Assembly (NCBI RefSeq): GCF_050920415.1
Contig: NZ_CP169309.1
Direction: 5' to 3' (one strand)
DNA: 64,000 nt
Origin: Escherichia coli
GTDB taxonomy: Bacteria > Pseudomonadota > Gammaproteobacteria > Enterobacterales > Enterobacteriaceae
Position 1 is the stretch's first letter; every line of letters begins with the position of its first letter. Made by a program: the position numbers and the translations under genes. The notes under the pieces are model-generated. The model saw only the letters and a program-made list of their open reading frames with translations, was not told the DNA's origin and searched no databases. This document shows positions 44,461-46,265 of this stretch, piece after piece.

Positions 44461-46265
44461 GTGTTTACAGGGACTTTTCCAATGAATGAGCATATAACCC
44501 AAGCTTTATCAAATTACATAATCGAAGATAATCCAGGTTATGCAGTAATGATTACTGGAAAGTGGGGCACAGGAAAGACCTACACTATAAAGAATTTATT
44601 TCCTAATAATGAGATTTACTATATTAGTCTATATGGATTATCATCTGAAGCAGAAATTTACGCTACTCTTTTTGATGTAATGAATCCGGACAAAAAAAGG
44701 TAAAAAAATTATTTGATAAGTTTAAGGCTTTTGAAATTAATGCTTTTGGATTAAAAATCACCCCTGTTGTTATGATTTCTAGTTTTCTAAATCTTTCAGA
44801 AAACAAAAAAAACGTCAAACAAAAAACAATTGTTTTTGATGATCTCGAACGTTGCAATTATGATATTAACAATACGCTAGGTATAATTAACAGATATGTG
44901 GAACACTATGGTTGTCGTGTAATAGTTCTGTGTAATGAAGAAGAATTGCCAAGAGAAATATCTAAAATTAAAGAAAAATTATTTGGCTTAACATTATTCA
45001 TTGAATCTGATATTAAATCAGCATTTGATTCATTTACAAACAAAAACTCACACAATGAATTTAAAATTAATTTAGGTAAGTTAGTACAGGAAATTTTTAA
45101 GGCATCGAATTATTCATCTTTAAGAATTCTAAAACATGTAATAAATGACTGTGTAAAATTACTATCCTTACTAGAAGAAAAGCATAAAAACAATAAAGAA
45201 TTTTTAATTGAAACTTTCTCTGTATTCATCGCATTAGATATTGAAGCTAAAGCAGGTTTTCTATCAGAGAAAGATCTTCACCAACGCTTTTTACAATCTG
45301 TAATGGCTCAAGAATTTTTAAAGAAAAAGCAGGAAGATAATATCCCGCCAATCGTTAAAATTGATATAAAGTATCCATCCATTGCAATAACATCATGTGA
45401 AACAATATCCGAAAAGGATTTAATAGATATAATTTTCAAAGGTGTTTTTGATAAAAAAAGCATATGTAAAACTATTGATGAAAGCAATTTCTTCATTAGC
45501 AAGTGCAACATACCAAGTTGGCGCTTAATATATAACTATCATTCAATTGAAGATGATATTTTATATAGTGCTATAGAGCGTATGGAGAATGAATTCAACA
45601 ACAGATTAATTGACAATACTGGTTATATGATGCATATGTTTCATTTGCGATTACTTTTGGCTTACATGAATGAAATAGATAAATCATATGACGAAATAGA
45701 AAACCAATGTAAGCAATATATTGACGATCTTTATCAACAAGAAAGACTTCAGCCCATGATTGATGACGAATATTCAATTACAAGCATTCTTAACGCTTAT
45801 GAAAGTTGTCAGTACTGGGTACAACCAGAGTACGAAAATAACAGCAGAAACATAAAAAAACACCTCCGTGAAGTACAAAAAAAAGTATTTCAAGACCAAC
45901 TACCCAAATTACAACAGGATCTTCTAATAACATTAGGTAACGCACCTCGAAAGTTCAGTTCACTTATTTGCTATGATTACCAAACACCTGCTGAATATGC
46001 TTCTACTGAAATATTACATGGAATTAAAGTTGATGAATTTGTAGAGGCATGGCTATCATTACCGAAAAAAGAGATAATGATTATTAGACAAGCATTAATA
46101 AACAGATATAGCCATGGAAAAATTGATTCTTTTCCAAAAGAAAAAGACTGGTTGAGAAACATTGTTAGACATGTTGAGTTACGAGCTGAAGGTGAAAAAG
46201 GAGTTAAACAATTCCAAATTAAAAGTTATGTTGCAGGTGATCTTAGGAACCTCATACATAAATGA
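44461..46265 (+). pseudogene. KAP-family P-loop NTPase interrupted by a frameshift at an A7 tract (two ORFs 44461..44703 and 44772..46265)
   Basis: Upstream ORF carries Walker A GKWGTGKT, downstream ORF carries Walker B-like VFDDLER; downstream frame is open back to 44676, overlapping the upstream ORF across the A7 tracts at 44692..44698 and 44702..44708; about 30 percent GC. Confidence 0.6.

What the first reader, a model, noticed from the sequence alone, without database searches (positions are those of the whole stretch)
44461..46265. KAP-family P-loop NTPase between cI and int, split by a frameshift at tandem A7 tracts
The upstream 80-aa ORF carries the KAP-type Walker A (GKWGTGKT) and the downstream 497-aa ORF carries the Walker B-like VFDDLER, so together they form one roughly 600-aa KAP NTPase. 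The downstream frame is open back to 44676 and overlaps the upstream ORF across two A7 runs (44692..44698, 44702..44708). This could be a genuine frameshift pseudogene, a homopolymer sequencing error, or slippage-dependent (transcriptional or -1 ribosomal) expression. KAP NTPases are recurrent in defence islands, and the gene is AT-rich cargo in the lysogeny module where it would be expressed in the lysogen.
Basis: seen in the sequence. Interest (0 to 1): 0.75.

Follow-up and report, generated by a model that had tools for sequence, protein, structure and literature searches.

The report
Frameshifted prophage defence-candidate NTPase gene
A 594-residue ATPase gene carried by a P2/186-like prophage of E. 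coli, listed as an untested candidate anti-phage gene, is broken in this genome by the loss of one A from a run of eight, an ordinary homopolymer frameshift (or sequencing error) and not a programmed one.

Summary
There are two same-strand ORFs: 73 aa from ATG 44482 (80 aa from GTG 44461), and 497 aa at 44772-46265. Together they make one KAP-like P-loop NTPase gene lying between cI and int of a 186-like prophage (window 15161-47435).

Intact 594-aa homologues have A8 where the window has A7 (44692-44698). Adding one A reproduces exactly a protein (P0030) found in at least 64 sample blocks. An intact E. coli copy (L020) is identical over 5.9 kb of phage DNA except for that one base. So this is a 1-bp contraction and not a conserved recoding site: all 112 homologues found are single chains, and no RNA structure follows the site.

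I cannot separate a real mutation (about 0.6) from a homopolymer sequencing error (about 0.3). For a real mutation:
- The chromosomal flanks have no indels against a near-identical genome.
- Other lesions hit the same region elsewhere: A8 to A7 in a clonal lineage, a 23-bp deletion, and A8 to A9.

The protein matches PADLOC candidate PDC-S49 over its full length (E = 1e-128). It has an AAA+-like NTPase domain and an all-helical C-terminal domain with no recognisable effector. The family sits at accessory-gene sites of several temperate phages. Anti-phage function is inferred, not shown. Interest is low to moderate.

The parts
44482..44703 (+). N-terminal fragment of the NTPase gene (73 aa plus TAA stop). 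Walker A GKWGTGKT is at 44557-44580.
   Evidence: P0013 is exactly this product, annotated in the window's own genome. The start matches the intact homologues.
44692..44698 (+). A7 tract 1, the lesion. It is A8 in every intact allele examined, so one A is missing here.
   Evidence: Alignments. Adding one A gives exactly P0030.
44702..44708 (+). A7 tract 2. It is unchanged relative to the intact alleles and starts inside the premature TAA (44701-44703).
44805..44812 (+). A8 tract 3, intact here. It is the site of independent lesions in other strains: A7 in a clonal lineage, A9 in DRR827185, and removal by a 23-bp deletion in ERR9384618/9.
44772..46265 (+). C-terminal fragment (497-aa ORF; the frame is open from 44676). 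It holds Walker B FDDLER (44835-44852), the rest of the NTPase domain and the all-helical C-terminal domain. There is no Shine-Dalgarno sequence before ATG 44772.
   Evidence: P0001; invariant DDLER; structure.
43819..44403 (+). 186-type CI repressor, the upstream gene on the same strand.
   Evidence: PHROG 4 transcriptional repressor; RefSeq annotation of homologous loci; Pfam Phage_CI_repr.
46312..47352 (+). Phage integrase, the downstream gene on the same strand, 46 nt after the NTPase stop.
   Evidence: PHROG 1 integrase, E = 2.5e-74.
15161..47435 (.). P2/186-like prophage inserted between mntR and mntS. An 11-bp repeat TATAATATAGC lies at 15150 and 47440.
   Evidence: An empty site in strain MFDS1022581 joins window 15160 to 47436. 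Repeat found. Gene content taken from the homologous prophage.

Best explanation
The region is a single gene for a 594-aa soluble KAP-like P-loop NTPase. It is accessory cargo in the cI-int (lysogenic) gene array of a 186-like prophage, and it has lost one A from an A8 tract (codons 71-73, Lys-Lys-Lys). Translation now stops after residue 73, between Walker A and Walker B, so neither fragment can be an active NTPase.

The lesion is an unprogrammed replication-slippage contraction of a homopolymer. The homopolymer exists only because the gene is AT-rich and lysine-rich. It most likely marks a very recent loss of function of a dispensable, possibly costly, gene.

I infer that the intact protein is a lysogen-expressed anti-phage or superinfection-exclusion factor. 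In this model an NTP-driven switch domain is coupled to a helical-repeat domain that would bind a phage or host partner. At most, a small amount of full-length protein could still be made by chance -1 slippage of tRNA-Lys on AAA AAA before the rare AGG codon, or by RNA polymerase adding an A.

Shown: gene identity, the lesion and its polarity, and the recurrence of lesions. Inferred: expression from the lysogenic promoter, the defence function, and any leaky read-through.
For: Lesion and polarity:
- Intact alleles carry A8: JNE25-001 (99.7% DNA identity), LH13-b (77%), L009-L011 and L020.
P0030 is present in 64 blocks of the public collection.
- L020 differs from the window by that single base over 41482-47435.

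Not a systematic assembly problem:
- 31.7 kb of chromosomal flanks against MFDS1022581 show 3 substitutions and 0 gaps. These flanks include 8 runs of 7 or more bases and 33 runs of 6.
- The A8 and A7 runs in the other AT-rich cargo ORF (15410-16984) read in frame.

Real lesions of the same gene exist elsewhere:
- A8 to A7 at tract 3, in 24 contigs read (index: 34 blocks) of one clonal lineage.
- A 23-bp deletion between AAAAC repeats, in two sequencing runs, on a phage background identical to the window's.

Tracts are by-products of composition: counts of runs of A8 or longer match synonymous-codon shuffles (P = 0.3-0.9).

Family and function:
- PADLOC PDC-S49, E = 1e-128, full length.
- Pfam KAP_NTPase, E = 3e-7.
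- Homologues sit at accessory-gene sites of different temperate phages, and one stays intact in a decayed Enterobacter prophage.
- A cI-int hotspot is described for K139-like P2 relatives (PMC9122126).
- KAP NTPases with shown anti-phage activity exist (PMC12632615).
Against: - The exact frameshifted products occur on one contig only, the window's own 5.31-Mb genome (one search found none elsewhere). There is therefore no independent confirmation of A7.
- A single-base difference in a homopolymer is also the commonest kind of long-read assembly error.
- The flank test covers only 8 long runs, so it bounds the error rate weakly.
- The A9 allele (DRR827185) rests on one short contig of unknown platform.
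- No experiment shows that PDC-S49 defends against phages: no paper mentions it.
- No effector domain was recognised.
- Expression from the lysogenic promoter is inferred only from gene order, short gaps and the absence of predicted terminators.
Confidence: 0.6

Rival explanations
1. Homopolymer sequencing or assembly error. The strain really has A8 and an intact 594-aa gene, and the split is an artefact of consensus calling in an A-rich stretch.
For: - The only difference from an intact allele over 5.9 kb is one base in a homopolymer.
- The split products are unique to this one assembly among about 15 billion proteins.
- The intact allele is common.
- The local sequence is 26-30% GC with two adjacent A runs, a difficult context for long-read consensus.
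Against: - There are no indels in 31.7 kb of flanks against a near-identical genome.
- All other runs of 7 or more bases that could be checked in the window agree with relatives or keep ORFs open.
- Genuine lesions in the same part of the same gene are documented in other assemblies, so a real lesion is not improbable beforehand.
Confidence: 0.3
2. Phase-variable (contingency) switch. The A tracts serve as reversible ON/OFF switches of a costly defence gene, and this genome was sampled in the OFF state.
For: - Tract-length polymorphism occurs at two tracts among nearly identical alleles: A7/A8 at tract 1, and A7/A8/A9 at tract 3.
- Three or four independent lesions sit on backgrounds that otherwise differ by 0-1 substitutions, so the inactivation rate is high relative to point change.
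- All lesions fall in the 130-nt lysine-rich, low-confidence insert between Walker A and Walker B.
Against: - The number of runs of A8 or longer is what codon shuffling predicts.
- Tract positions are not conserved between alleles.
- A8 is short for an efficient switch in mismatch-repair-proficient E. coli (my own background knowledge).
- One lesion is an irreversible 23-bp deletion.
- The clonal A7 lineage stays OFF in all 24 contigs read.
Confidence: 0.07
3. Slippage-dependent expression. Full-length protein is made from the A7 allele at a functionally relevant level, either by -1 ribosomal frameshifting or by insertion of an A during transcription.
For: - A -1 shift after GAC AAA AAA, with the rare AGG and then TAA in the A site, yields exactly the wild-type protein.
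- A-rich slippery sites support about 1% or more unprogrammed -1 shifting in E. coli, and 'hungry codon' P-site slippage is an established mechanism (PMC10861913).
- Single-A insertions by RNA polymerase occur mainly in A/T runs and rise exponentially with run length (PMC5574713).
Against: - The split arrangement is not conserved: all 112 homologues are single ORFs, and the nearest alleles have an in-frame A8.
- The heptamer is not a canonical X_XXY_YYZ in the zero frame.
- The downstream RNA is less stable than shuffled sequences (z = +1.23).
- No Shine-Dalgarno-like stimulator lies upstream.
- A7 is below the roughly 9-nt threshold for notable transcriptional slippage (PMC1088944).
- The expected yield is about 1% or less.
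Confidence: 0.04
4. Two separate functional genes: a small Walker-A protein and a 497-aa protein, acting as distinct polypeptides.
For: RefSeq annotates two CDSs in this genome (WP_432780813.1 and WP_432780814.1).
Against: - The break lies inside one NTPase domain, between Walker A and Walker B.
- No homologue is naturally split. The only other splits found are lesions at other positions.
- No ribosome-binding site precedes ATG 44772.
Confidence: 0.01

Closest known systems
PADLOC candidate system PDC-S49 (single-gene 'phage defence candidate'); RefSeq 'P-loop NTPase fold protein' WP_097761518.1 / WP_166501509.1; PHROG 4740
   Same: - End-to-end HMM match (E = 1e-128, residues 2-593 of 594; PHROG 4740 E = 1e-76).
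- Same length and motifs.
- Same cI-gene-int position in E. coli and Kosakonia prophages.
   Different: The window's copy is interrupted by a 1-bp deletion. The family itself has no published experimental test that I could find.
KAP-family P-loop NTPases with shown anti-phage activity: EF_KAP and metagenomic relatives (PMC12632615), Tmn (bioRxiv 10.1101/2022.08.21.504612), PifA of the F plasmid
   Same: A P-loop NTPase of KAP type (Pfam PF07693) is fused to a long C-terminal region with no known domain. EF_KAP needs its Walker B motif for defence. All are carried on mobile elements.
   Different: - There are no transmembrane helices (highest Kyte-Doolittle 19-residue mean 1.35), whereas Tmn and EF_KAP are membrane-anchored.
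- The Pfam match is modest (E = 3e-7).
- tblastn against 72,556 plasmids listed no F-plasmid pifA hit at E < 1e-3; its one Escherichia record (H16, 4.9 Mb) has no annotated feature under the match.
- The C-terminal domain is unrelated as far as can be seen.
Defence hotspots of P2-like phages (tin/old and Z/fun loci), and the cI-int hotspot of K139-like P2 relatives in Vibrionaceae (Rousset et al. 2022, PMC9122126)
   Same: Variable AT-rich cargo at a fixed position of a P2-family prophage. The position (between repressor and integrase) is the one described for the Vibrio phages. The same prophage also carries an OLD/HEC-04-like ATPase at its other end.
   Different: - Here the host is E. coli and the phage is 186-like.
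- A 2026 preprint (10.64898/2026.02.27.708500) reports that pseudogenes of defence genes are rare in P2-like elements, whereas this gene shows several independent lesions.
Programmed recoding at A-runs: dnaX -1 frameshift (A_AAA_AAG), and transcriptional slippage in IS elements and Thermus dnaX (PMC1088944, PMC5009743)
   Same: An A-run at the junction of two overlapping frames. A -1 shift would restore the native protein.
   Different: The arrangement is not conserved, there are no stimulatory elements, and the run has 7 bases rather than 9 or more. The frame junction arose by a recent deletion.
AAA+ initiator-clade and STAND-type switch ATPases (Cdc6/ORC, TnsC, MuB; RdrA of RADAR; Avs)
   Same: - The architecture of an NTPase plus a helical-repeat domain resembles STAND and Avs sensors.
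   Different: - Sequence identity is 10-15%, so this is a fold-level resemblance only.
- There is no effector domain and no partner gene in the locus.

Membership tests
PADLOC PDC-S49 candidate defence protein | Full-length match to the PDC-S49 profile HMMs | tested here: met
   PDLC05031 gave E = 1.2e-128 over residues 2-593 of 594. The query was the JNE25-001 allele, which is one residue different from the repaired window allele. LH13-b gave 6.8e-132.
PADLOC PDC-S49 candidate defence protein | Uninterrupted reading frame (a functional copy) | tested here: not met
   The window has A7 instead of A8 at 44692-44698, so the frame stops at 44701-44703.
PADLOC PDC-S49 candidate defence protein | Demonstrated protection against phage | not testable with these tools
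   No paper in the library mentions PDC-S49. Only context supports the function.
KAP-family P-loop NTPase (Pfam PF07693; Aravind et al. 2004, as cited in PMC12632615) | Walker A GxxGxGK[ST] and Walker B hhhhDD | tested here: met
   G26, W28, G29, G31 and K32, and D120, D121, L122, E123 and R124, are invariant in 63 homologues.
KAP-family P-loop NTPase (Pfam PF07693; Aravind et al. 2004, as cited in PMC12632615) | Significant match to the Pfam KAP_NTPase model | tested here: met
   E = 3e-7, 30.4 bits, residues 3-187 against model positions 2-238 of 293. PF07693 is precomputed for most homologues, but marked 'faint' at several loci. The match is modest.
KAP-family P-loop NTPase (Pfam PF07693; Aravind et al. 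2004, as cited in PMC12632615) | Transmembrane helices inserted in the NTPase domain (typical of prokaryotic members such as Tmn) | tested here: not met
   The highest 19-residue Kyte-Doolittle mean is 1.35 (residues 88-106), below the usual 1.6. The AlphaFold2 model shows a low-confidence loop at residues 71-110. This was a crude hydropathy test only.
KAP-family P-loop NTPase (Pfam PF07693; Aravind et al. 2004, as cited in PMC12632615) | Alpha-helical domain C-terminal to the NTPase | tested here: met
   [not shown]
Programmed frameshift / transcriptional-slippage gene | The two-frame arrangement is conserved among homologues | tested here: not met
   All 112 homologues are single ORFs of about 590-680 aa. 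The nearest alleles have an in-frame A8.
Programmed frameshift / transcriptional-slippage gene | Stimulatory RNA structure downstream of the slip site | tested here: not met
   For 44699-44790 the minimum free energy is -8.2 kcal/mol and z = +1.23. 185 of 200 shuffles fold at least as well.
Programmed frameshift / transcriptional-slippage gene | Slippery motif: a canonical X_XXY_YYZ in the zero frame, or an A/T run of 9 or more | tested here: inconclusive
   The zero-frame codons are GAC AAA AAA AGG TAA. This is not a canonical heptamer, and the run has 7 bases. Single-tRNA slippage before the rare AGG codon is conceivable, and a -1 shift would give the wild-type protein.
Phase-variable contingency locus | Tract-length polymorphism among close relatives | tested here: met
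   A7/A8 at tract 1 and A7/A8/A9 at tract 3.
Phase-variable contingency locus | Tracts maintained beyond what composition predicts | tested here: not met
   Observed against expected runs of A8 or longer were 3 vs 2.0, 4 vs 2.9, 3 vs 2.4, 4 vs 3.1 and 1 vs 1.2, with P = 0.29-0.87. Tract positions differ between alleles.
Phase-variable contingency locus | Reversible ON/OFF switching within a lineage | not testable with these tools
   The clonal A7 lineage is uniformly OFF in the contigs read. No read-level data were available.

The most novel reading that the evidence does not exclude
The lysine-coding A tracts in the flexible insert between Walker A and Walker B make this prophage defence-candidate gene unusually easy to switch off, and possibly back on. 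Lysogen populations would then carry a mix of ON and OFF states, or a trickle of full-length protein from -1 slippage at AAA AAA AGG. This would tune the cost of a toxic NTPase. It would also be a counter-example to the reported rarity of defence pseudogenes in P2-like phages.
Probability: 0.1. Interest if true: 0.55.

Novelty: new member of a known kind. Interest (0 to 1): 0.25.

Why it matters
As it stands this is mainly an annotation point. The two CDSs in this genome (WP_432780813.1 and WP_432780814.1) should be one frameshifted gene, or one intact gene if the A7 is an assembly error.

The family behind it is more useful. It is a rare, untested single-gene defence candidate (PDC-S49) that occupies the repressor-integrase slot of 186-like prophages in E. 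coli, Kosakonia, Enterobacter and Citrobacter, and it turns up at accessory-gene sites of unrelated temperate phages. It is a soluble KAP-like NTPase with a helical C-terminal domain and no recognisable effector, so testing it could reveal a new way such switch ATPases block phages.

Several independent lesions on otherwise identical phage backgrounds also suggest that the gene is costly or dispensable. That bears on how prophage defence cargo is lost.

Tried and rejected
- DNA search of 50,697 phage records found no match. A protein search there gave only weak partial hits, so no sequenced free phage carries a close homologue.
- NCBIfam gave nothing beyond generic P-loop noise.
- A profile search of PDB sequences gave nothing significant.
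- P0054 (368 aa) looked like another disrupted allele but is simply cut by a contig end. Many 'partial' cluster members are contig breaks, not lesions.
- The promoter and terminator scan was at chance level and shows only the absence of a predicted plus-strand terminator between cI and int.
- A literature search for PDC-S49 returned nothing.
- I considered and rejected a polar effect on int, and translation of the 497-aa fragment by re-initiation, as claims. Neither can be tested here. No ribosome-binding site precedes 44772.
- The look-up of encoding contigs has no record of the 497-aa product. The source assembly's reads and sequencing platform could not be examined.

Full report
**1. The observation**

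The sequence is as described, with three small corrections.
- An ORF runs from 44461 (GTG) to 44703 and contains GKWGTGKT. A 497-aa ORF runs from 44772 to 46265 and contains IVFDDLER.
- The downstream frame is open from 44676.
- A7 runs lie at 44692-44698 and 44702-44708.
- Correction 1: the biological start is almost certainly ATG 44482. It has an AGGGA 8 nt upstream, and it is the start annotated in the intact homologues and in the window's own genome. The N-terminal fragment is therefore 73 aa.
- Correction 2: only the first A7 run lies fully inside the overlap of the two frames. The second begins inside the premature TAA.
- Correction 3: the fused protein is 594 aa.

**2. Where it sits**

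- The window is E. coli chromosome. Strain MFDS1022581 has an empty site that joins window 15160 to 47436.
- So 15161-47435 is a 32.3-kb insertion between mntR and mntS, flanked by an 11-bp repeat.
- It is collinear with annotated P2/186-like prophages.
- The neighbours of the finding are a 186-type CI repressor (43819-44403) and an integrase (46312-47352). A Cox/Apl-like gene and a CII gene diverge on the other strand.
- The three plus-strand genes are 78 and 46 nt apart, with no predicted terminator between them. Co-transcription from the lysogenic promoter is therefore a reasonable inference, but it is not shown.
- The gene has 29.7% GC, against 49% for the prophage.

**3. What the lesion is**

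- Two complete E. coli genomes carry the same gene at 99.7% DNA identity as one 594-aa CDS. A third carries a 77%-identical allele, also as one CDS.
- All three have A8 where the window has A7.
- Inserting one A into the window gives exactly protein P0030. P0030 is listed in 64 blocks of the public collection, always in the same cI-gene-int context.
- One such locus (L020) is identical to the window over 41482-47435 except for that single A. Its chromosomal flank differs at 56 positions in 1.8 kb.
- The window allele is therefore a derived 1-bp contraction of an A8 tract on a phage background that has recently spread between divergent hosts.

**4. Real mutation or artefact**

The exact split products (P0013 and P0001) occur on one contig only, the window's own 5.31-Mb chromosome. 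There is no independent confirmation.

Against a systematic homopolymer problem:
- The 31.7 kb of chromosomal flanks differ from MFDS1022581 by 3 substitutions and no gap. These flanks include 8 runs of 7 or more bases.
- The prophage segment 32538-47435 has no other uncompensated coding indel against JNE25-001.
- The A8 and A7 runs of the other AT-rich cargo ORF are in frame.

In favour of real lesions being plausible:
- A 77%-type allele carries A7 instead of A8 at a second tract (window equivalent 44805-44812) in 24 contigs read (the index lists 34 blocks). These contigs are near-identical including their flanks, so this is one event inherited clonally.
- Two runs (ERR9384618 and ERR9384619) carry a 23-bp deletion between AAAAC repeats, on a background otherwise identical to the window.
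- One short contig (DRR827185) has A9 at the second tract.

I put a real mutation at about 0.6 and an assembly error at about 0.3. The read data would settle it.

**5. Not a programmed frameshift**

- All 112 homologues found are single chains of about 590-680 aa, and the nearest alleles read through A8.
- The RNA downstream of the site is less stable than shuffled controls (z = +1.23).
- No Shine-Dalgarno-like element precedes it.

Chance suppression remains possible. The zero-frame reading is GAC AAA AAA AGG TAA. A -1 slip of tRNA-Lys before the rare AGG codon would give exactly the wild-type protein. Unprogrammed -1 suppression of about 1% is documented in E. coli (PMC10861913). Single-A insertions by RNA polymerase are concentrated in A/T runs (PMC5574713). 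This would be leakiness, not design.

**6. Not demonstrably a contingency locus**

- Each allele has 1-4 runs of A8 or longer, but at different positions.
- Their number matches synonymous-codon shuffles (P = 0.29-0.87).
- The tracts are therefore by-products of a 10%-lysine, AAA-preferring, AT-rich gene.
- All lesions fall within gene positions 211-345. This region encodes the lysine-rich insert between Walker A and Walker B, which the structure model leaves at low confidence (pLDDT 44-57 for residues 71-110).
- Three or four lesions on backgrounds that differ by 0-1 substitutions point to a high loss rate or to selection for loss. One lesion is irreversible, and the clonal A7 lineage shows no reversion.

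**7. What the protein is**

- The intact protein matches PADLOC PDC-S49 end to end (E = 1e-128) and PHROG 4740, of unknown function.
- It matches Pfam KAP_NTPase modestly (E = 3e-7) and no NCBIfam model.
- Invariant residues include the Walker A and Walker B motifs, R215 and W347.
- No transmembrane segment is predicted, unlike Tmn or EF_KAP.
- No F-plasmid pifA hit was listed by tblastn at E < 1e-3.

**8. Function**

Function is inferred from context.
- In Kosakonia the 45% homologue sits in the same cI-int slot.
- In Yersinia a 34% homologue follows int at the end of a 186-like prophage.
- In Pseudomonas a 32% homologue sits between the lysis genes and Q of a lambdoid prophage.
- In Enterobacter roggenkampii a 92% homologue stays intact in a decayed prophage whose integrase is lost or split.
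- A repressor-integrase hotspot of defence genes has been described for K139-like P2 relatives (PMC9122126).
- KAP NTPases fused to unknown C-terminal regions have been shown to defend Enterococcus in a Walker-B-dependent way (PMC12632615).

The most likely role is a lysogen-expressed anti-phage or exclusion factor that works as an NTP-driven switch with a helical binding domain. The target and the effector step are unknown.

**9. Verdict**

This is an ordinary homopolymer frameshift, or a miscalled base, in a rare and catalogued but untested defence-candidate gene. The frameshift itself is of low interest. The gene family, and its repeated inactivation, are modestly interesting.

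Noticed in passing
window 15410-17808: The other end of the same prophage carries different cargo. There is a 524-aa OLD/ATPase-Toprim-like protein (PADLOC HEC-04, E = 3e-33) and a 232-aa ORF that by eye resembles a hexapeptide-repeat acyltransferase (no PADLOC match; not otherwise searched). The related prophage in JNE25-001 has a PIN + STAS-like + ATPase trio at this position (L004 12195-14054). This looks like a second variable cargo site next to mntR.
   Followed up: partly
window 41482-47435, compared with L020 and L009: Apart from the A-tract, the lysogeny region is 100% identical to copies in E. 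coli strains whose adjacent chromosomal DNA differs by about 2.6-3% (48-56 substitutions in 1.8 kb). This indicates very recent horizontal spread of this phage.
   Followed up: partly
L017 6001-7785 and L018 2201-3985 (Enterobacter roggenkampii): A 92% homologue is intact in a decayed prophage remnant at the same mntR-mntS site, where the integrase is missing or split into 125- and 240-aa pieces. The cargo gene appears to outlast the phage.
   Followed up: no
window 44482-46265 (public protein clusters): Many draft assemblies end contigs inside this 30% GC gene, giving dozens of 'partial' proteins of 66-494 aa. These mimic disrupted alleles and inflate apparent pseudogene counts. One example (P0054) was checked and is a contig end.
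   Followed up: partly
window 44482-46265 (annotation of the source genome): RefSeq/GenBank annotate the window's own copy as two ordinary CDSs (WP_432780813.1 at 73 aa, 'P-loop NTPase fold protein'; WP_432780814.1 at 497 aa, 'hypothetical protein') and not as one frameshifted pseudogene.
   Followed up: yes
window 15150-15160 and 47440-47450: An 11-bp direct repeat TATAATATAGC lies at both prophage junctions, in the mntR-mntS intergenic region. It is the probable attachment core. The same integration site is used in E. coli, Kosakonia and Enterobacter.
   Followed up: partly
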